Assembly (NCBI RefSeq): GCF_009914755.1
Contig: NC_060942.1
Origin: the human T2T-CHM13v2.0 reference genome, Homo sapiens
Length of the DNA stretch: 64,000 bases
Reading direction: 5' to 3' (one strand)
Part shown: piece by piece, positions 5,597 through 52,192 of the stretch
How the letters are laid out: each line of letters begins with the position of its first letter
Position numbering within the stretch: position 1 is the first letter of the stretch
Position numbers and translations under genes: made by a program
Notes under the pieces: model-generated
The model's database searches: none
What the model was told of the DNA's origin: nothing
What the model saw: the letters and a program-made list of their open reading frames with translations, nothing else

Positions 5597-6131
5597 TGTG
5601 GTAATCTCACAAGATGGCTGCCACAATTCTTCCTCTCCTTCTGTGCATGTGACACTTCTCTCCTTACAAATAAGGCCTAGATCCCTTCCCCTGAAATCTG
5701 GCCTGGCCTTGTGACTTGCTTTAGTCAACAGAATGTGAAAGAAGTGATACTGGACTAGTTCAGATCCCAGCTGTCAAGAGGTCTGGAGGCTTCCACTTTC
5801 TTTCTTGGAAGCCAGCTGTATGTAAAAACTCGAACTACCTCGAGACCACTGTGTTGTAAAAAAGGCCTGGCTAGCCACTAGGAGAGACCTTGTGGGAAGA
5901 GAAAGAGAAATAGAAACTCAGCCAGCCCCCTTTGTTTCAGCCATCACAGCTGAGGCACCAGACAGCTGAGTGAAGGAGCCATCTTGGATCTCCCAGCAAC
6001 GATCACGGAGAGCAAAGCAACCACTCAGCTAGGCCTAGAATAGATTACAAAATTGGAGAAATAATTTTTTCGTTGTTTTAAGCCACTGAGTTTTGGAGTG
6101 TTTTGTTATGCAGCAGTAAATAATTGAAACA
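5597..6131 (+). mobile_element. MaLR solo LTR, MLT1G/MLT1H-like
   Basis: TG...CA ends; MLT1 motifs 'ccttgtgacttgctttagtcaacagaatg', 'cagctgaggcaccagaca', 3' end 'gttttaagccactgagttttggagtgttttgttatgcagcagtaaataattgaaaca'. Confidence 0.75.
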
Positions 6132-42985: not shown

Positions 42986-43165
42986 TTACAATACAATGAA
43001 AAGAGAACAAAAATAATAAACTTAAAATTTTTTTTAACAATCTGCCCTGAATCATAACTTTAGAGAACACTACAGTCATGTTAAAATATTTCTGGCTGTA
43101 TAGTCTCCTAACATATCCCAGAGATGCTGGAAGGTAGTCACTATGTGCCTTAGTTCCGGCTCAAG

Positions 43166-43620
43166 TAAAGGAGGAGAACACCCCTCATATTGTCTTATGC
43201 CCAATTTCTGCCTCCAAAGAAATTAGAAGTAGAAACTAAAAGGCAGGAATGGAATCCACAGGCAGATAGCCCAGCACCACGCCCTGAGCCTGGTAGTTAA
43301 AAACCCCTGACCTAACTGCTTGTGTTATCTATAGATTTCAGACATTGTATGGAAAAGCATCGTGAAAATCCCTGTCCTCTTCTGTTCCGTTCTGATTACC
43401 AGTGCATGCAGCCCCCAGTCATGTACCCCCTGCTTGCTCAATCAATCATGACCCTCTCACATGGACCCCCTTAAGAGTTGTAAGCCCTTAAAATGGACAG
43501 GAATCACTTACTCGGGAGATCGGTGAGATGAGAGTATGCCGATTCTCCCAGCTGAATAAAGCCCTTTCCTTCTACAACTCTGTGTCTGACGGGTTCTTGT
43601 CTGTGGCTTGTCCTCCTACA
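43166..43620 (+). promoter_or_regulatory. 5' LTR (LTR2 family), 455 bp
   Basis: Begins taaaggaggagaacacccctcatattgtcttatgcccaatttc; TATA-like ccTTAAAA 43488-43493; AATAAA 43555-43560; ends cctaca. Confidence 0.95.
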
Positions 43621-43625
43621 TTTCT

Positions 43626-43643
43626 TGGTTCCCTGACTGGGAA
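43626..43643 (+). other. Primer binding site, tRNA-Glu
   Basis: tggttccctgactgggaa = 17/18 match to the complement of the tRNA-Glu(CTC) 3' end (TGGTTCCCTGACCGGGAA), 5 nt after the LTR. Confidence 0.93.
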
Positions 43644-43883
43644 GAGAGGTGATTAGCAGAAGCCTGATGCAGCTCCTTAGGCGGCTTAGGCCTGCCTTAT
43701 GGAGCATCCCTGCAGGAGACTCCGACCAGCCTGAGCAATGAGAATCCAAAGAGCACTCCCAGTTAGGCAATTGCCCCGGTGGAATGCCTCGCCAGAGCAG
43801 CGTGTGGCAGGCCCCCATGGAGGATCAATGCAATGGCTGAACACTGGGAAGGAACTGGCACTTGGAGTCCAGACATCTGAAAC

Positions 43884-43892
43884 TTGGTAAGA
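43884..43892 (+). promoter_or_regulatory. Proviral major splice donor
   Basis: TTG|GTAAGA in the leader, about 265 nt after the 5' LTR, the expected position of the gammaretroviral SD. Confidence 0.7.
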
Positions 43893-43965
43893 CTGGTCTT
43901 TGGAACTTGTCCACTCTGTTTGAGTGGAAGCGTGGCTTGATCACCCATGAAGTGCCTGTACCGGC

Positions 43966-44074
43966 ACTTTGGTTTTTGTTTTTGACTTGACTTGGATTGC
44001 TTGAAACTTTGGTTTTGGTTTTGACCCAGCTTGGATTTCTTGATACTCTGATTTTGGTTTTGATTCTGGTTTGG
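43966..44074 (+). repeat. ~39-bp imperfect tandem repeat (x2.7) in the proviral leader
   Basis: actttggtttttgtttttgacttgacttggattgcttgaa / actttggttttggttttgacccagcttggatttcttgat / actctgattttggttttgattctggtttgg. Confidence 0.8.
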
Positions 44075-44168
44075 TGTAAACTGTAAAAGTGTGTATGTGC
44101 TCTCTTTACTCGTTCTTTGTTTTGTGGTGTGCTTGTGGTGTGAGCATGGTGTTTTGTCTCGAGGAAAC

Positions 44169-45766
44169 ATGGGTTAGGCACAAAGTAAGCCCACCCCACT
44201 AGGAACTATGTGGAAAAATTTCAAAAAGGGATTTAAAGAAGACTATGGAGTTACTATGACACCAGGAAAACTTAGAACTTTGTGTGAGATAGACTGGCCA
44301 GCATTAGAGGTGGGTTGGTCATCAGAAGGAAGCCTGGACAGGTCCCTTGTCTCGAAGGTATGGCACAGGGTAACCTGTAAGCCAGGGCACCCAGATCAGT
44401 TCTTGTATATAGATTCTTGGTTACAGCTAGTTTTACATCCCCCACAGTGGTTAAGAGGACAGGCAGCAGCAGTAGTAGAAGCAAAGGGACAGTTAGTTAA
44501 GGAACGTTCTCGCTCCACCCGCCGAGGGAAGTCAGTGCCAAAAGTCCTGTCCGACCCAACACCAGAAGAATCATGGCAGGAATTGGTACCAGCAGTACTC
44601 CCTCCTTATCAAAAGGAAGGGCTCCCCACTCTCGAGGCCACAGCACCTCCACCTCCACCAGATATCCACACTCCTAGACCACCCAGAGTAGACAAAAGAG
44701 GAAGTGAAGCCACGGGAGAAACTCCTCCCTTGGCAGCTCACTTATGGCCCAAGACTGGAATCCAAATGCCCCTGAGAGAACAGGGATATACTGGGGTAGA
44801 TGAGGAAGGACACATGGTGGAAAGGCGTGACTTTGTGTATCAACCTTTCACCTCTGCTGACCTCCTCAATTGGAAAAATAATACTCCATCTTACACTGAA
44901 AAGCCTCAAGCTTTAATTGACTTGCTCCAAACTATTATACAGACTCATAATCCTACTTGGGCTGATTGCCACCAGCTGCTGATGTATCTCTTTAATACAG
45001 ATGAAAGGTGAAGGGTGCTCCAGGCAGCAACTAAGTGGCTAGAGGAGCACATCCCAGCCGATTACCAAAACCCCCAAGAATATATAAGAATTCAGCTGCC
45101 AGGAACAGATCCCCAGTGGGACTTGAACAAGGGACCAGACATGGAGAGGCTAAGATGGTACCGTGAGGCATTGATAGAAGGTCTAAAGAAAGGGTCATAA
45201 AGGCTACAAAGGTAAATAAGGTCTCTGAGGTCATCCAAGGAAAAGAGGAGAGTCCAGCGCAATTCTATGAAAGGCTGTGTGAGGCTTACCATATGTACAC
45301 TCCTTTTGATCCAGATAGCCCTGAAAATCAGTGCATGATTAACATGGCCTTAGTTAGTCAAAGCGCGGAAGATATCAGGAGAAAATTGCAGAAACAGGCT
45401 GGGTTTGCAGGTATGAATACCTCACAGTTACTGGAAATAGCCAATCAAGTGTTTGTGAATAGAGATGCAACAAGCCACAGAGAAAGCTGTAAGGAAGGTG
45501 AACGCCAGGCCAGGTGAAACACTGACTTACTGGCCACGGCCATTGGGGGAGTTCCCCCGAAAGGACAGGGAAAGAGTGGTTCTGGGAAGAATACGCAGTC
45601 TAATCACCCAAGCTTACAACGTAACCAATGCACCTATTGTAAGGAAACAGGACATTGGAAAGATAAGAGTCCCCAACTGAAGGAAAAGCAAGGTGATTCG
45701 GAGGAAAAGACCTCAGATAAAGATGAGGGAGCTTTGTTCAATCTGGTTGAAGGGCTATTAGACTGA
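44169..45766 (+). pseudogene. gag: gag (MA-CA-NC), disrupted
   Basis: MG*AQSKPTPLGTM start; PPPY-like late motif LPPYQ; MHR VIQGKEESPAQFYERL; zinc knuckle CTYCKETGHWKDKS (last Cys lost); stops 44175, 45009, 45515; -1 frameshift near 45196; terminal TGA 45764-45766. Confidence 0.93.
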
Positions 45767-48210
45767 AGGGGACTGGGCTGAAGCGCCCCCAAGGAGCCCA
45801 CAATCGGGATTACAATTGGGGGCAAGGACATCAAGCTTTTGGTCGATACTGGTGCTGAACATTCAGTAGTGACCACCCCGGTTGCCCCCTTATCCAAGAA
45901 AACCATTGATATAATTGGAGCAACAACAGTTTCCACTAAGCAGGCTTTCTGTCTACCGTGGACCTGCTCGGTAGGGGGACATGAAATAGTTCACCGGTTC
46001 TTGTACATGCCTGACTGTCCCTTGCATTTGCTGGGAAGAGACTTGCTTAGCAAGCTGAGAACCACCATCTGCTTTACAAAACAGGGCTCTTTACAGCAAA
46101 AGTTACCAGGAACAGGAGTTATCATGGCCCTTATGGTCCCCCGGGAAGAAGAACGGAGACTTTTTCTAACCGAGCCAGGCCAAGAGATAAAATCAGCTCT
46201 AGCTAAGTGATGGCCCTGAGTATGGGAGGAGGATAATCCTCTGGGACTGGCAGTCAACCAAGCCCCCGTACTCAGAAGTTAAGCCGGGGGCCCAGCCAAT
46301 TAGACAAAAGCAGTATCCAGTTCCCAGAGAAGCTCTCGAAGGAATTCAGGTTCATCTCAAGGCGCTTGAAGCCTTTGGAATTATAGTTCCTTGCCAGTCT
46401 CCACTGAACACCCCCATCCTGCCTGTCCCTAAGCCAGGGACCAAGGACTACCGGCCAGTAGCCAGTAGAGGACTTGCGCTTGGCCAACCAAGCTACAGTG
46501 ACTCTACACCCAAAAGTTCCTAACCCTTACACATTGTTAGGGCTGCTGCTGGCTGAGGACAGCTGGTTTACCTGCCTGGACTTTAAAGATGCCTTCTTTA
46601 GCATCAGACTAGCTCCTGAGACCCAGAAGCTGTTTGCCTTTCAGTGGGAAGATCCGGAGTCAGGTGTCACTACTCAGCACATTTGGACCCGGCTTCCCCA
46701 AGGGTTCAAGAACTCCCCTACTATCTTCAGGGAGGCCCTGGCTCGAGACCTGCAAAAGTTTCCTGCTAAAGACCTAGGCTGCGTCTTGCTCCTGTATGTG
46801 GATGACCTTCTGCTGGGACACTCCACGGCAGTCAGGTATGCCAAAGGGACGGATGCCCTGCTTCGGCACCTGGAAGACTGTGGGTATAAGGTGTCCAAGT
46901 AGAAATCTCAGATCTGCAGACAGCAGGTACGCTACCTGGGATTCACTATTCTGAAAGGGAAGTGCAGCCTGGGGTCAGAAAGAAAGCAAGTCATCTGCAG
47001 CCTACTGGAACCTAAAACCAGAAGGCAAGTAAGGGAATTCCTAGGAGCTATGGGGTTTTGCAGATTATGGATTCCAAACTTTGCAGTACTAGCCAAACCT
47101 TTGTACAGGGTTACAAAGGGGGGCGACTGGGAGCCTTTTGAATGGGGGCCTCTACAACAGCAAGCCTTTTGTGAATTAAAGGAAAAACTTATGTCGGCTC
47201 CAGCCCTAGGACTACCAGATTTGACAAAGCCCTTTACACTCTATGTGTCAGAAAGAGAAAAAATGGCAGTTGGAGTTTTAACCCAGACTGTGGGGTCCTG
47301 GCCAAGGCCCGTGGCCTATCTCTCAAAACAAGATGGGGTTTCGAAAGGCTGGTGACCATGTCTAAGGGCCCTAGCAGCAATGGCCCTGTTAGCACAAGAA
47401 GCAGATAAACTAACCCTTGGGCAAAACCTGAATATAAAGACCCTCCATGGTGTGGTAACTTCGATGAATACCGAAGACCATCACTGGCTAACAAATGCTA
47501 GATTAACCAAGTACCAAAGCTTGCTATGTGAAAATCCCCGCATAACCATTGAAGTCTGTAACACCCTAAATCCCGCCACCCTGCTGCCAGTATCAGAGAG
47601 CCCGGTCGAGCATAACTGTGTAGAGGTGTTGGACTCAGTTTATTCTAGCAGACCTGACCTTTGGGACCAGCCATGGGCAACAGTAGACTGGGAGTTATAC
47701 GTGGATGGGAGCAGTTTCATCAACCCACAAGGAGAAAGATGTGCAGGATATGTGGTGGTAACTTTGAATGCTGTCACTGAAGCCAAAGCATTGCCACAGG
47801 GCACTTCAGCCCAGAAGACTGAGCTCATTGCTTTAACTCACGCTCTAGAACTCAGTGAAGCACAACGCAAGGCAGGGCCCCACTGTTCCGCCAGGCCTAC
47901 AAGCTTATGAAGATGATCCTTTTGAGGATCTTCAGGTGGATTTCACAGAAATGCCAAAATGTGGAGGTGATCGCGTGTGGATCAAGGACTGGAACATAGC
48001 CCCTTTGCGGCCACAGTGGAAAGGACCTCAGACCGTCACCCTGACCACCCCCAAGCTGTAAAGATAGAAGGAATCCCAGCCTGGATCCACCACAGCCGTG
48101 TGAAACCTGCAACTGCTGAAACCTGGGAGGCAAAACCGAGCCTGGACAATCCCTGCAAAGTGACTCTGAGGAGGATGACAAGCCCTGCTCCAGTCACACC
48201 CGGAAGCTGA
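45767..48210 (+). pseudogene. pol: pro-pol (protease, RT, partial RNase H, partial integrase), disrupted and doubly deleted
   Basis: In frame with gag; LVDTGA protease; LDFKDAFF, LPQGFKNSP, YVDD (46795-46806); RNase H YVDGSS and AQKTELIAL; IN LQVDFTEMP and WKGP/WIHHSRVK; several stops; frameshifts near 46274, at a 7-bp duplication 46454-46467, at 47860 and near 48053. Confidence 0.93.
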
Positions 48211-48232
48211 CTGGTCTACGCACGGCCGAAGC

Positions 48233-50262
48233 ATGAGGAGAATCATCGTGGGGCTCATTTTCCTTATAATTTGGACTTGTATAGTAAAAACTTCCGCTGA
48301 TTTTCCCCGCATGGAGGACTGCTCTCAGTGTATACATCAGGTTACTGAAGTAGGGCAACAAGTTAAAACAATCTTGCTGTTCTATAGTTACTCTGAATGC
48401 CTAGGAACTTAAAAAGGAACAGTATGTATCCCAGGAAATGACCGGCCAGATGTGTGTTATGACCCCTCTGAGCCTGCCATGTCCACAGTTTTTAAAATAA
48501 GATTAAGGACTGCAGACTGTTGGGGACTCGTAGATGATACAAGTAAAGTATTAGCCAGAAAAGAAGAAAAAGGGGTGCCCAAACTCATAATCTTGAAATT
48601 TGATGCTTGTGCTGTCATTAATAGCAATAAGTTAGGAAGCGGATGTGGCTCCTTTGATTGGAAGAAAGGCTATAGGACCGAAAATAGGTACATTTGTCAT
48701 GAATTAGGACTGTGTGGAAATAAACGTGGATACCGGTCTTGTGTCATTTGGGCCACTTGGATAAAAAATGAAAAGGATCCAGTCCACCTTCAGAAAGGAA
48801 AAAGTGGCCCTTCCTGTGCTAAGGGACAATGTAGCCCCTTAGAGCTAGTAATAACCAATCCCCTTGATCCTCGCTGGAAAAAAGGGGAGCATGTGACCTT
48901 AGGAATTGATGGGGCTGGACTGGATCCTCGAGTAAATATCTTAGTTCGAGGAGAAGTTTACAAATGCTCTCCTGAGCCAGTGTTTCAAACTTTCTATGAT
49001 GAACTACATGTGCCAGTACCAGAAATTCCAGGAAAAACAAGAAATTAGTTTTTGCAATTAGCCGAGCATGTAGCCCAGTCTCTCAGTGTCACTTCATGTT
49101 ATGTATGTGGAGGAACTGTAAAGGGAGATCAATGGCCATGGGAAGCCCGAGAATTAGTACCTACAGACTCAGTTCCTGGTGAATTCCTGGCTCAAAAGAA
49201 TCAACCTGGTAATTTCTGGGTCCTAAAAGCCTTAATTATTGGACAATATTGCATAGCTAGAGAAGGAAAAGAATTCATTCACCGTGCTGAACGACTTAGT
49301 TGTCTGGGACAGAAACTGTATAATGGTACCAAAAAAACAGTCACTTGGTGGAGTTGAAATCACACAGAAAGGAATCCATATAGTACATTCCCAAAGTTGC
49401 AAACCGTGTGGACCCACCCAGAGTCCCACCGGGACTGGACAGCCCCCACTGGATTATACTGGATATGTGGGCATAGAGCTTATGCCAAATTAACCGACCA
49501 GTGGGCAGGTAGTTGTGTTATTAGCACTATTAAACCATCTTTCTTTCTACTGCCCATAAAAACAGGCGAACTCCTGGGCTTCCCTGTCTATGCTTCCCAT
49601 GAAAAGAGAAGCATAGCTATAGGAAATTGGAAAGATGATGAATGGCCCCCTGAGATAATCCTACAATACTATGGGCCGGCTACTTGGGCACAAGATGGTT
49701 TGTGGGGATACCAGGCCCCCATTTACATGCTCAACCAAATCATACAGTTACAAGCTGTCTTAGAAATAATCACTAATAAAACTGGCAGAGCCTTGACTAT
49801 TCTGGCCCAGCAAGAAACTTAGATGAGAAATGCTATCAAAATAGATTGGCTCTTGACTACTTGCTAGCAGCTGAAGGAGGGGTCTGTGGGAAATTTAACC
49901 TTACTAATTGCTCTCTACACATAGATGATTAAGGGCAAGTAGTTGAAGGCATAGTTAGAGATACGACAAAACTGGCACATGTACCCGTGCAAGTGTGGCA
50001 TGGATTTGATCCTAGGGCCATGTTTAGAAAATGGTTCCCAGCGCTAGAAGGACTTAAAACTCTTATAATAGGAGTTATAATAGTAATAGAAACCTGCTTA
50101 CTGCTCCCTTGTTTGCTACCTGTACTTCTTCAAATGATAAAAAGCTTCATCGCTACCTTAGTTCACCAAAACGCTTTAGCACAAGTGTACTATATGAATC
50201 ACTATCGATCTGTCTTGCAAGAAGACATGGGCAATGAGGATGAAAGTGAGAACTCCCACTAA
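48233..50262 (+). pseudogene. env: env (SU-TM), disrupted
   Basis: Signal peptide MRRIIVGLIFLIIWTCIV; CYVC motif; furin site decayed to HEKR; [20 protein letters not shown]; TM anchor LIIGVIIVIETCLLLPCLLPVLL; stops 48410, 49046, 49355, 49820, ~49930; frameshift near 49836. Confidence 0.93.
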
Positions 50263-50276
50263 TGAGTGAGGTTCTC

Positions 50277-50288
50277 AAAGGAGAGGAA
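50277..50288 (+). other. Polypurine tract
   Basis: aaaggagaggaa immediately 5' of the 3' LTR. Confidence 0.85.
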
Positions 50289-50751
50289 TAAGGGAGGAGA
50301 CCACCCTTCATATTGTCTTATGCCCAATTTCTGCCTCCAAAAAAAGAAGAAGCAAAAACTAAAAGGCAGAAATGGAATCCACAGACAGATAGCCCAGCAC
50401 TGCACCCTGAGCCTGGTAGTTAAAAATCAACCCCTGACCTAACTGCTGTGTTATCTATAGATTTCAGACATTGTATGGAAAAGCATCATGAAAATCCCTG
50501 TCCTGTTCTCTTCCTTTCTGATTACTGGTGCATGCGGCCCCCAGTCACGTACCCCCTGCTTGCTCAATCAATCACAACCCTCTCACGTGGACCCCCTTAG
50601 AGTTGTAAGCCCTTAAAATGGACAGGAATCTCTCACTCGGGGAGCTCGGTTTTTGGAGACGCGAGTCCACTGATTCTCCCAGCTGAATAAAGCCCTTTCC
50701 TTCTACAACTCGGTGCCTGAGGGGTTCTTGTCTGTGGCTCATCCTGCTACA
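50289..50751 (+). promoter_or_regulatory. 3' LTR (LTR2 family), 463 bp, with poly(A) signal
   Basis: taagggaggagaccaccc...cctgctaca; AATAAA 50686-50691; about 91% identical to the 5' LTR by manual alignment. Confidence 0.95.
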
Positions 50752-52192
50752 CAAATACCATAAACAAAGTGGCTTATAAATAATAAAAATGTATTTCTCA
50801 CAGCTTTGGAGGCTGGAAGTCAGATATCAGGGTGGCAACATGGTCGGCTTCCATGGAGGAGCTTCTTTTGGGTTGCAGATGGCTCACTTATTGCTGTTCC
50901 CTCACAGTGCAAAGCTACAGAACTCTCTGGGGTCCCTATTACAAGGGCACGAGTTCCATTCATGAGGGCTGTACATTCTTGACCTAATTACCTCCCGAAG
51001 GCCCCAATTTCTAATACCATCACATGAGGGGCTAGGATTTCAACATGCGAATTTTGGGGGACACGAACATTCAGTTCATAGCACTATCCATAAAAAATTT
51101 CTTTTCTACTTAAATTTGACAAGGTTGGTTTCTGTTTTTTACTGCTGAGCACCCTGAAAGCATGGATCAGGTTCTCCACTTCCAGCTTAAATTGTTCCAT
51201 GTCTTCACTGAATTCTTCAAGTACTTACAGCAATTCCACATACGTCCATTGAGTGCCAGGCATTGTGCTATGCACTATAAGGATCATCAACTCACTAACA
51301 GGAGTCTTTCCAACTGTTCTTCTCCTGAACTGTATATTAATGAAGAAGCACGTATACAGTGATAATATCTTTTGAAAACCCTGACTAATCCTTGCTCACC
51401 AGCATTCTTTTATTTCAAGACTTTATGGAGTCTTTTTATGTTAATATGCACTAGGAAGCTTAAAAAGAAAGATAATATGTAGGGATTTCAAAATGTATGT
51501 GACATGGAACTTCTTTTATGAGAATCTTTGTGTGAATAATATCTAATTAAAGATATTAGGAAATTCTGGAATAAAAATAAAAACTATAAATGAAAAAGAA
51601 GAAAGAATTTAAGAAAGTGTGATAGAGGCAACGGGAATTTAAACAGAAGTGGGGAAAGGGCAAAAGAGAGAAGGCCAGTGGGGAATGAGCTGAACTCTGA
51701 GAAGGCAGATTAGTAAAGTCAAAAGTTAAAAAAAAAATTTGTTTCAAATCATTATCACATGCAATAGGCAACAAAAATTCCCCAAATGAAATCTTACAAA
51801 GTATTCTTGGATCATAGCATATTGAAATCTCAATATGCCTCATTTTTAATATAATATTTAATAAAATAGAAGAAGTAGCTTAAAGTCACAGAATGGAGTC
51901 TCATATGCAAATCCACTTACCTCTGGAGTTTACAACCAAGAAAGTCTACAAAGTGCTGGTCATCATCAGAAACAAACTTACAAATCTTATCTTTGACATA
52001 GTGCATCTATAATTGCGATATCATAGGCTATTCTGACCTGTCTCCCTCAAGGAAGCAAGAAGAAGCTAGAGAGATTGAGAGAAGGTAATTAGAATTGTCA
52101 ACAGCATATAGCAACTTTATATGAGACTTGAATAAAAAATATTTAGAGGAGAAAGAAAGTTTACATATTCATATTTATAAAACTCTTGCTAT

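What the first reader, a model, noticed from the sequence alone, without database searches (positions are those of the whole stretch)
47851..47976. Provirus apparently derived from a doubly spliced genomic RNA and mobilised in trans
Seen: RNase H stops at ...ALELSE-G (ctcagtGAAG|, 47860) and jumps to HNARQG of integrase, just past the HHCC finger. 106 nt later IN stops at FTEMPKCG-G (tgtGGAG|, 47966) and jumps to the C-terminal GDRVWIKDW...WKGP. RNase H YTDS, the IN zinc finger and the D..E core are missing. The element is 7.6 kb versus about 8.8 kb for full-length HERV-E. Both left ends finish in exon-like AG. Inference from the conserved protein and remembered family sequence: the lost segments begin GT AAG (EG-K) and GT AAC (GG-N), and end CAG (Q before HN; P-G before DRV), so both are GT-AG introns. 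Both LTRs are complete U3-R-U5 with PBS, PPT, a 4-bp TSD and no poly(A), so this is not an L1-processed copy. A spliced RNA that kept the leader/Psi, gag, pro, RT and env, but could not encode integrase, must have been reverse transcribed and integrated by a helper. Precedents exist for spliced HERV-H proviruses and MLV SD' RNA. I do not recall this being described for HERV-E pol. If other loci share the junctions, it is a non-autonomous spliced sublineage.
Basis: partly seen in the sequence, partly recalled or inferred. Interest (0 to 1): 0.8.

Follow-up and report, generated by a model that had tools for sequence, protein, structure and literature searches.

The report
HERV-E provirus copied from spliced RNA
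An ancient human endogenous retrovirus copy on chromosome 18 lacks two pieces of its polymerase gene that look exactly like removed introns, so it was most likely copied from a spliced viral RNA using enzymes supplied by another virus genome, a known kind of event not previously noted for this family.

Summary
The window holds a 7,586-bp HERV-E provirus (43166-50751) with two LTRs, a tRNA-Glu primer site and a polypurine tract. Against genomic HERV-E copies that keep this region, it lacks about 572 bp after 47860 and about 576 bp after 47966. Both joins are exact, with no filler.

In those copies, both missing pieces start with GT and end with AG. The first donor (AAG|GTAAGA) ranks 2nd of 396 GT sites in a reference copy. 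The second acceptor is the env splice acceptor SA2, documented experimentally in ERVE-4 transcripts. Only 0.77% of simulated deletions can be written GT..AG, and 0 of 3 other deletions in held copies are.

Junction 1 recurs in an independent chr3 provirus. Junction 2 recurs in a chr12 provirus from a different HERV-E lineage, so it arose at least twice.

Best reading (about 0.8): Psi-retaining, alternatively spliced HERV-E RNA was packaged, reverse transcribed and integrated with enzymes supplied in trans. This resembles MLV SD' RNA/SDARE and the spliced HERV-H and HML-2 loci.

Three points stay open:
- whether one RNA was spliced twice or the splices came in successive cycles
- RNA evidence for three of the four splice sites
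- primate orthologues

It is a new member of a known kind, of moderate interest.

The parts
43162..43165 (+). 5' copy of the target-site duplication (CAAG)
   Evidence: Matches 3 of 4 bases with CAAA at 50752-50755.
43166..43620 (+). 5' LTR (455 bp, complete, ends ...CTACA)
   Evidence: Self-BLAST aligns 43166-43620 with 50289-50751 at 89.0% over 465 columns. Repeats found. Ends read.
43626..43643 (+). Primer binding site complementary to the 3' end of tRNA-Glu (17 of 18)
   Evidence: The complementary 15-nt motif lies at the 3' end of tRNA-Glu(TTC) genes in 3 of 3 loci scanned.
43884..43892 (+). Leader splice donor SD1 (TTG|GTAAGA, exon end 43886), left unspliced in this copy
   Evidence: Homologous to ERVE-4 SD1 (ATG|GTAAGA), located with the published SD1/SA2 probe.
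44178..47691 (+). gag, protease and reverse transcriptase reading frames, broken by stops and frameshifts
   Evidence: ORF list. Contiguous homology to chr3, chr12 and ERVE-4 proviruses.
47692..47860 (+). N-terminal third of RNase H, ending at junction 1
   Evidence: Pfam RNase_H profile positions 5-56 of 141, E 3.7e-08.
47860..47861 (+). Junction 1. About 572 bp absent (RNase H C-terminal part with YTDS, and the IN zinc finger). In unspliced copies the missing piece reads AAG|GTAAGA...AACAG|CAC
   Evidence: Same junction in the chr3:79.83M provirus.
47861..47966 (+). Retained 106-nt piece of integrase (start of the catalytic core, first D), behaving as a small internal exon
   Evidence: exon length 106 in ERVE-4 and L003.
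47966..47967 (+). Junction 2. About 576 bp absent (rest of the IN core with the second D and the E). In unspliced copies the missing piece reads GAG|GTAACA...TTTCTCTCCAG|GTGATC. The acceptor is env SA2
   Evidence: SA2 identity. Same junction in the chr12:17.18M provirus.
47967..48061 (+). Integrase C-terminal domain remnant
   Evidence: Pfam MLVIN_C positions 6-35 of 56, E 8.4e-07, just under the curated cut-off (29.0 versus 29.2 bits).
48233..50262 (+). env, ATG 267 nt downstream of SA2, broken by several stops
50277..50288 (+). Polypurine tract
50289..50751 (+). 3' LTR (463 bp), followed by no poly(A)
50752..50755 (+). 3' copy of the target-site duplication (CAAA)

Best explanation
The two gaps in pol are introns that the host spliceosome removed from HERV-E RNA before reverse transcription.

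The RNA did not use the leader donor SD1, so it kept the leader and gag region, where gammaretroviral packaging signals lie (inferred from MLV). Instead it used cryptic sites inside pol:
- A strong donor in RNase H (AAG|GTAAGA) was spliced to a weak acceptor just past the integrase zinc finger.
- 106 nt later, a moderate donor (GAG|GTAACA) was spliced to the normal env acceptor SA2.

The spliced RNA was packaged, reverse transcribed and integrated like a genome. That gave a provirus with two full LTRs, PBS, PPT and a short target duplication.

This genome cannot encode a complete RNase H or integrase. Those enzymes must therefore have come from the virion that carried it, made from unspliced sibling RNA or from another HERV-E provirus (trans-complementation).

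Shown here: the GT..AG ends, the exact joins, recurrence of each junction at an independent locus, and the identity of the second acceptor with SA2.

Inferred: packaging, the source of the enzymes, and whether both introns left one RNA or were removed in successive replication cycles, possibly with recombination between co-packaged RNAs.
For: 1. Ends of the missing pieces. In 6 of 6 aligned copies the first piece begins GTAAGA and ends AG. The second begins GTAA in 5 of 7 rows that keep it and ends CCAG in 3 of 5 rows readable at the acceptor; the rest carry single point changes. The same holds in ERVE-4.

2. Site strength.
- The junction-1 donor matches 8 of 9 positions of the recalled 5' splice-site consensus. 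It ranks 2nd of 396 GT sites in the ERVE-4 internal region and 1st of 145 in L003.
- The junction-2 acceptor ranks 3rd of 693 AG sites by pyrimidine score.

3. The junction-2 acceptor is SA2. The published CT-RCC-env SD1/SA2 probe (PMC13754704 Table 1) splits into a left half ending at SD1 and a right half starting exactly at the homologous CAG|GTGATCG in the ERVE-4 locus. The reported SA4, '18 nt longer', fits the AG 18 nt upstream.

4. Chance. Simulated deletions of 200-1500 bp can be written GT..AG in 1,548 of 200,000 cases, or 0.77%. None of 3 other deletions of 30 nt or more in held HERV-E loci is GT..AG.

5. Recurrence.
- Junction 1 spans in 2 of 9 scored candidates (chr18, chr3). It gives 2 exact hits with a 24-nt pattern.
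- Junction 2 spans in 2 of 33 scored candidates (chr18, chr12) and in 2 of 7 with the chr12 query.
- Flanking DNA of the three proviruses is unrelated.
- chr12 groups outside the main clade with 100/100 or 100/99 support in two pol regions (there beside ERVE-4) and outside a 100/100 main clade in the env region. The window's immediate junction flanks are of main-clade type at 97-100%. Junction 2 therefore arose at least twice.

6. Retroviral, not L1, integration: full U3-R-U5 at both ends, PBS-Glu, PPT, no poly(A).

7. Precedent. MLV SD' RNA uses a cryptic donor in gag and the canonical env acceptor, keeps Psi, and is packaged, reverse transcribed and integrated as SDARE (PMC2925334, passages).
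Against: - No RNA evidence was available for three of the four sites (junction-1 donor, junction-1 acceptor, junction-2 donor).
- The junction-1 acceptor (183rd of 693) and junction-2 donor (84th of 396, 6 of 9 consensus positions) are mediocre sites.
- The scoring is a crude consensus count with a recalled consensus, not MaxEnt or SpliceAI.
- Both joins carry short microhomology (AG, AGGT), which template switching or end joining could also use.
- No other locus carries both junctions.
- The window+chr3 pairing (85/86 in 47003-47860) was not recovered in 46460-47002 or 47967-48883, where the window pairs weakly with chr21. A shared junction-1 ancestor is therefore unproven.
- Genome searches score only the best candidates (40 of 261), so the counts are lower bounds.
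- Primate orthologues could not be examined.
- The target-site duplication matches only 3 of 4.
Confidence: 0.8

Rival explanations
1. The deletions were made by reverse transcriptase jumping between short homologies (copy-choice template switching) during an earlier replication cycle. Splicing was not involved, and the GT..AG ends are coincidence.
For: Both joins have microhomology, 2 nt (AG) and 4 nt (AGGT). Retroviral RT is known to make such deletions (established knowledge). This origin is pre-integration, so it also explains sharing between loci.
Against: - Only 0.77% of simulated deletions can be written GT..AG, and here both can.
- One end is the top-ranked donor-like site and another is the documented env acceptor SA2.
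- The exact junction 2 recurs in a different HERV-E lineage.
- Two of the three other deletions seen in held copies (chr3 59 nt, chr4 34 nt) lie between short repeats, and none of the three is GT..AG.
Confidence: 0.1
2. The pieces were lost from chromosomal DNA after integration, by end joining or replication slippage. The sharing with the chr3 and chr12 copies would then come from coincidence or ectopic gene conversion.
For: Old proviruses do accumulate internal deletions. The held copies show a 3.35-kb, a 59-nt and a 34-nt deletion. No orthologue was available to exclude this for chr18.
Against: - The same exact breakpoints occur at independent loci with unrelated flanks.
- There is no locally raised identity around junction 1 between chr18 and chr3 (88% over 66 nt) of the kind recent gene conversion would leave.
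- chr12 and chr18 differ by about 15-25% around junction 2.
- The GT..AG ends and SA2 identity would be a further coincidence.
Confidence: 0.03
3. This is a variant of the best explanation, not exclusive of it. A provirus already lacking intron 1 (a junction-1 lineage that also gave the chr3 copy) was transcribed, and its RNA was then spliced at intron 2 and mobilised again by a helper. On this reading a truly non-autonomous spliced sublineage existed.
For: Junction 1 is shared by two loci of the same main clade. They pair with 85/86 support in one 858-nt region. chr3 has junction 1 only, which would be the expected intermediate.
Against: The pairing is not recovered in two other regions, and the main clade is star-like. 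Independent splicing of the same strong donor in two RNAs, or recombination between co-packaged spliced and unspliced RNAs, explains the pattern equally well.
Confidence: 0.35

Closest known systems
MLV SD' RNA and its provirus SDARE (splice donor-associated retroelement)
   Same: A gammaretroviral RNA spliced from a cryptic donor inside a coding gene to the canonical env acceptor. It leaves the leader and Psi intact and is packaged, reverse transcribed and integrated as a defective provirus that depends on the full-length virus (PMC2925334, passages). Junction 2 here likewise joins a cryptic donor to the canonical env acceptor SA2.
   Different: - The MLV donor lies in gag (capsid) and removes about 4 kb; here the donor lies in integrase and removes about 0.58 kb.
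- A second, separate intron (junction 1) with its own cryptic acceptor is present here.
- SDARE was shown experimentally in an infectious virus, whereas this case is inferred from germline fossils of about 25-35 million years' age.
- That age is an inference from 89% LTR identity, scaled on 92.2% for about 25 My in PMC4379568.
HERV-K(HML-2) locus ERVK-17 (10q24.2) and the 2q32.1 locus formed from spliced HML-2 RNA
   Same: These are human proviral loci interpreted as reverse-transcribed spliced ERV transcripts. ERVK-17 is described as formed 'in a retroviral fashion' (PMC3590776, abstract and passages).
   Different: They belong to a betaretrovirus-like family and use the canonical rec/np9 or env splice sites. 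The 2q32.1 locus was made by L1. No recurrence of a junction across lineages was reported in the passages I read.
Spliced HERV-H elements (Goodchild, Freeman and Mager 1995)
   Same: Genomic ERV copies lacking intron-like segments, taken as evidence of amplification via retrotransposition of spliced RNA.
   Different: This is a different family (HERV-H). I saw only the reference entry in PMC3590776; its content is recalled, not read.
L1 SpIREs (spliced integrated retrotransposed elements)
   Same: Retroelement copies carrying intra-element GT-AG deletions because a spliced RNA was retrotransposed (PMC5860796, title and start of abstract only).
   Different: L1 is a non-LTR element using target-primed reverse transcription, with no LTRs, PBS or packaging into virions.
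HERV-W processed pseudogenes made by L1
   Same: ERV RNA copied back into the genome by enzymes supplied in trans (PMC5537654, listing only).
   Different: Those copies start at R, end in poly(A) and lack full LTRs. This element has two complete LTRs and no poly(A).

Membership tests
HERV-E (class I, gammaretrovirus-like ERV with tRNA-Glu primer site) | Primer binding site complementary to the 3' end of tRNA-Glu | tested here: met
   43626-43643 matches 17 of 18. The complementary 15-nt motif ends tRNA-Glu(TTC) genes in 3 of 3 loci scanned. PMC4379568 states that HERV-E uses tRNA-Glu.
HERV-E (class I, gammaretrovirus-like ERV with tRNA-Glu primer site) | Nucleotide homology along the whole internal region to a recognised HERV-E locus | tested here: met
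   77-81% identity to the ERVE-4/CT-RCC locus on chr6 over 44133-50667, apart from the two gaps. That locus was identified by the published primers. Identity to more than 20 other genomic copies is 86-95%.
HERV-E (class I, gammaretrovirus-like ERV with tRNA-Glu primer site) | Gammaretroviral pol domains | tested here: met
   RNase_H (partial) and the MLV integrase C-terminal domain.
HERV-E (class I, gammaretrovirus-like ERV with tRNA-Glu primer site) | LTR subgroup (LTR2, LTR2B or LTR2C) | not testable with these tools
   No Dfam or Repbase library is on hand. The window groups with the main star-like clade, apart from ERVE-4 and chr12.
Provirus derived from spliced retroviral RNA (SDARE-like) | The missing segment is bounded by GT...AG in unspliced relatives and the join is exact | tested here: met
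   Both segments. No filler bases. Chance expectation is 0.77% per deletion.
Provirus derived from spliced retroviral RNA (SDARE-like) | The splice sites are used in viral RNA | tested here: inconclusive
   The junction-2 acceptor equals SA2 of CT-RCC-env transcripts. No RNA data were available for the junction-1 donor, junction-1 acceptor or junction-2 donor.
Provirus derived from spliced retroviral RNA (SDARE-like) | Retroviral-type integration: two complete LTRs, PBS, PPT, short target duplication, no poly(A) | tested here: met
   The target duplication matches 3 of 4.
Provirus derived from spliced retroviral RNA (SDARE-like) | The packaging region is retained (leader downstream of SD1 unspliced) | tested here: met
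   SD1 at 43886|43887 is followed by contiguous leader and gag. Whether this region acts as Psi in HERV-E is an inference from MLV and was not tested.
Provirus derived from spliced retroviral RNA (SDARE-like) | The same junction occurs at independent integration sites | tested here: met
   Junction 1 at chr3:79.83M and junction 2 at chr12:17.18M, with unrelated flanks.
L1-mediated processed ERV pseudogene | Starts at R, ends in poly(A), lacks 5' U3 and 3' U5, long target duplication | tested here: not met
   Both LTRs are full length and align end to end. There is no poly(A) after 50751.

The most novel reading that the evidence does not exclude
HERV-E pol contains a functional cryptic 106-nt exon. 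Its use repeatedly produced packaging-competent genomes lacking RNase H and integrase, in at least two HERV-E lineages. At least one such genome (junction 1) then spread as a helper-dependent sublineage, which would be a primate germline counterpart of MLV SDARE. The same sites are intact in the expressed ERVE-4 locus, so they may still generate undescribed pol-env isoforms in kidney cancer.
Probability: 0.3. Interest if true: 0.55.

Novelty: new member of a known kind. Interest (0 to 1): 0.45.

Why it matters
- It gives sequence-level evidence that defective HERV-E copies arose by a specific RNA-processing route rather than random decay, and that HERV-E amplification included trans-complementation.
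- It maps three candidate splice sites in HERV-E pol. Together with the known env acceptor they define a small internal exon.
- These sites are intact in ERVE-4, a locus studied as a source of tumour antigens in clear-cell kidney cancer. The junctions are therefore a concrete, testable prediction for long-read RNA data.
- For annotation, recurrent GT-AG gaps in ERVs should be read as splice scars.
- The phenomenon itself is already known for MLV, HERV-H and HML-2. The gain is a new family and a clean example of recurrence, not a new principle.

Tried and rejected
- **Junction patterns.** 24-nt patterns with up to 3 mismatches gave 27 hits for junction 1 and 18 for junction 2. Apart from chr18 and chr3, the 17 hits that received loci (L035-L042, L044-L052) have no HERV-E similarity. 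The other 25 hits (17 for junction 1, 8 for junction 2) were not examined and are about what chance predicts by my rough estimate.
- **Other junctions at SA2.** Five loci showed only the SA2-side flank (L060-L064), and I checked them for another junction at SA2, such as an env-mRNA-derived copy. Three run straight through intron 2, and two lose homology inside it (truncated, or interrupted by an insertion). None has a splice-like join.
- **chr21:31.03M.** Its 3.35-kb leader-to-RT deletion looked like a possible SD1 splice. It starts about 70 nt upstream of SD1 and is not GT..AG.
- **chr18 and chr3 as sisters.** Support was moderate in one region and absent in two others.
- **G-to-A hypermutation in the window copy.** Pairwise counts against 6 copies were roughly balanced (G>A 17-26 versus A>G 13-23), so there is no signal.
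- **Larger survey.** The survey therefore rests on 3-kb pieces and four 10-kb loci.
- **Literature.** Searches for a described spliced HERV-E provirus found none. One search was swamped by an unrelated term.
- **Not searched.** A junction-1 donor joined directly to SA2, or SD1 joined to SA2, because that needs a typed joined sequence.
Full report
**What is there.**
Window 43166-50751 is a 7,586-bp provirus. Its parts are:
- 5' LTR 43166-43620 and 3' LTR 50289-50751, which align end to end at 89.0% identity over 465 columns
- a primer binding site at 43626-43643
- a polypurine tract at 50277-50288
- flanking tetranucleotides CAAG and CAAA (3 of 4 match)
- no poly(A) after the 3' LTR

The primer site is complementary to the 3' end of tRNA-Glu at 17 of 18 positions. 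The complementary 15-nt motif sits at the 3' end of tRNA-Glu(TTC) genes in 3 of 3 loci scanned.

The internal region is 77-81% identical to the ERVE-4/CT-RCC HERV-E locus on chr6 and 86-95% identical to many other genomic copies. It is therefore a HERV-E provirus of the main, star-like burst.

**The observation.**

Pfam shows the window's RNase H stops at profile position 56 of 141. The zinc-finger and rve core models are not hit, and only part of the MLV-type integrase C-terminal domain follows. A copy that keeps the region (L004) hits all of these.

BLAST and MAFFT against copies fetched from the same assembly show two clean gaps:
- Gap 1 is 572 bp in L004, 575 in L003 and 571 in ERVE-4.
- Gap 2 is 576 bp in L004, 578 in L003 and 598 in ERVE-4.
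- A 106-nt piece is retained between them.

Adding the gaps back gives about 8.73 kb, close to the 8,806 bp reported for clone 4-1 (PMC4379568, passage).

**Are they introns?**
In copies that keep the segments, piece 1 reads AAG|GTAAGA ... AACAG|CAC and piece 2 reads GAG|GTAACA ... TTTCTCTCCAG|GTGATC (ERVE-4). The joins in the window are exact.

I counted matches to the general 5' splice-site consensus, which is recalled and did not come from a tool. Results are:

| Site | Score | Rank in ERVE-4 internal region | Rank in L003 |
|---|---|---|---|
| Junction-1 donor | 8 of 9 | 2nd of 396 GT sites | 1st of 145 |
| Junction-2 acceptor | pyrimidine score 16 | 3rd of 693 AG sites | 3rd of 264 |
| Junction-1 acceptor | pyrimidine score 11 | 183rd of 693 | 79th of 264 |
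| Junction-2 donor | 6 of 9 | 84th of 396 | 34th of 145 |

The last two are mediocre, as cryptic sites often are.

In a simulation of 200,000 random deletions of 200-1500 bp in ERVE-4, 1,548 (0.77%) could be written GT..AG after sliding across microhomology. Two independent hits would be about 6 in 100,000.

As an empirical control, I checked the three other deletions of 30 nt or more in the held HERV-E loci. These are a 3.35-kb leader-to-RT deletion at chr21:31.03M, a 59-nt deletion in the chr3 copy and a 34-nt deletion at chr4:35.07M. None is GT..AG.

**The second acceptor is the env acceptor.**
PMC13754704 lists a probe for the CT-RCC-env SD1/SA2 junction (Table 1). In the ERVE-4 locus, its left half ends exactly at the leader donor (ATG|GTAAGA). 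Its right half begins exactly at CCCAG|GTGATCG, which is homologous to 47967 in the window.

The paper's statement that isoform pol-env-B is 18 nt longer (section 14) fits the AG 18 nt upstream. The env ATG lies 267 nt downstream, at 48233. Junction 2 thus joins a cryptic donor in integrase to the virus's normal env acceptor.

The leader donor SD1 (43886|43887) is intact and unspliced in the window. The RNA therefore kept the leader and gag region.

**Other loci.**
Junction 1:
- A 70-nt probe centred on junction 1 gave 9 candidates, all scored. Two span the junction (chr18 itself, and chr3:79.83M at 88%), and 7 stop at the donor.
- A 24-nt pattern gave exact hits only at these two loci. The 8 other hits that received loci are unrelated DNA.

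Junction 2:
- The 70-nt probe gave 33 candidates, all scored. Two span the junction (chr18, and chr12:17.18M at 84%), 17 match only the donor side and 14 only the acceptor side.
- The chr12 join is the same to the base.
- Using the chr12 junction as the query found only chr12 and chr18 spanning, of 7 candidates.

In one search, 40 of 261 candidates were scored.
- 23 loci matched the donor-side flank and ended at the donor.
- In 12 of these the acceptor-side flank lay 1,238-1,263 bp away, so both pieces are present.
- In one it lay 8.1 kb away.

The chr3 provirus (8,121 bp, LTRs 91.2% identical) has junction 1 only. The chr12 provirus (about 7,974 bp, LTRs 93.3% over 345 bp) has junction 2 only. 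The flanks of the three proviruses are unrelated. All counts are lower bounds, because the genome tool scores only the best candidates.

**Phylogeny.**
- chr12 lies outside the main clade that holds the window. In the two pol regions it groups with ERVE-4 at 100/100 and 100/99. In the env region the main clade itself has 100/100.
- The window's sequence on either side of junction 2 is of main-clade type, at 97-100% to main-clade copies against 84-86% to chr12.
- Junction 2 therefore arose at least twice, which argues for a site-specific process.
- For junction 1, the window and chr3 pair with 85/86 support in 47003-47860 (17 rows). They do not pair in 46460-47002 (12 rows, unresolved star). 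In 47967-48883 (15 rows) the window pairs weakly with chr21.
- Whether junction 1 arose once and was inherited, or twice, is open.

**Mechanism.**
Best reading: alternatively spliced, leader-retaining HERV-E RNA was packaged, reverse transcribed and integrated. Without the RNase H C-terminal part, the integrase zinc finger and most of the integrase core, this genome could not supply its own enzymes. They came from the virion, made from unspliced sibling RNA or from another provirus.

The 106-nt piece between an acceptor and a donor has the size of an ordinary internal exon. That fits recognition of the two cryptic sites as a pair (inference).

Three histories remain possible:
- one RNA spliced twice
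- a junction-1 provirus re-expressed and then spliced at intron 2
- recombination between co-packaged spliced and unspliced RNAs

**Known relatives.**
- MLV SD' RNA/SDARE is the closest analogue. It uses a cryptic donor in gag and the canonical env acceptor, keeps Psi, and is packaged, reverse transcribed and integrated as a defective retroelement (PMC2925334, passages).
- Loci formed from spliced HML-2 RNA, one of them 'in a retroviral fashion', are described in PMC3590776 (passages). That paper cites Goodchild et al. 1995 on spliced HERV-H; I saw the reference entry only.
- L1 SpIREs are the non-LTR counterpart (PMC5860796, listing and start of abstract).
- My searches found no description of spliced HERV-E proviruses. 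The HERV-E review classifies copies only as solitary LTRs, truncated or full length (PMC4379568, passages).
- PMC3492278 (passages) adds nothing on this.
- The library does not hold most subscription journals, so absence there is weak evidence.

**Verdict.**
It is a new member of a known kind and of moderate interest.

The main gaps are:
- RNA evidence for three of the four splice sites
- primate orthologues
- proper splice-site scoring
- an exhaustive copy survey

Noticed in passing
L006/L025 (G000:C21:31025063-31028901), junction near L006 position 969: The chr21:31.03M HERV-E copy has a 3.35-kb deletion from the leader (about 70 nt upstream of SD1) into RT. The ends are not GT..AG and carry only 1-2 nt of overlap. 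It looks like an ordinary deletion and was used here as a control.
   Followed up: yes
L030 about 2005-2045 (G000:C3:79827300-79837299): The chr3 provirus carries a short tandem duplication covering part of the primer binding site. The motif TCTTGGTTCCCTGACCTG appears twice in succession.
   Followed up: no
window 43884-43896, and the junction-1 donor in unspliced copies (e.g. L032 about 5993-6005): The leader donor SD1 and the cryptic RNase H donor share the same 10-nt core, GGTAAGACTG. This may explain why the cryptic site is so donor-like.
   Followed up: partly
L013 (G000:C24:62396499-62399533) and L014 (G000:C23:154199513-154202547): The chrX:154.2M and chrY:62.4M HERV-E copies are identical over the 861 nt compared. 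This is consistent with a pseudoautosomal or X-Y shared region.
   Followed up: no
L055 (G000:C11:71671995-71675035) and L056 (G000:C11:3520296-3523336): Two chr11 copies in opposite orientation are nearly identical to each other (tip branches 0.0055 and 0.015). They sit on a long branch (0.15) away from the main clade, so they are probably a segmental duplication of a divergent HERV-E-like provirus.
   Followed up: no
window 47861-47966: The retained 106-nt piece is less similar to other main-clade copies (83-89%) than the 261 nt to its left (91-95%). Pairwise substitution counts show no G-to-A bias. The cause is unknown and the sample is small.
   Followed up: partly
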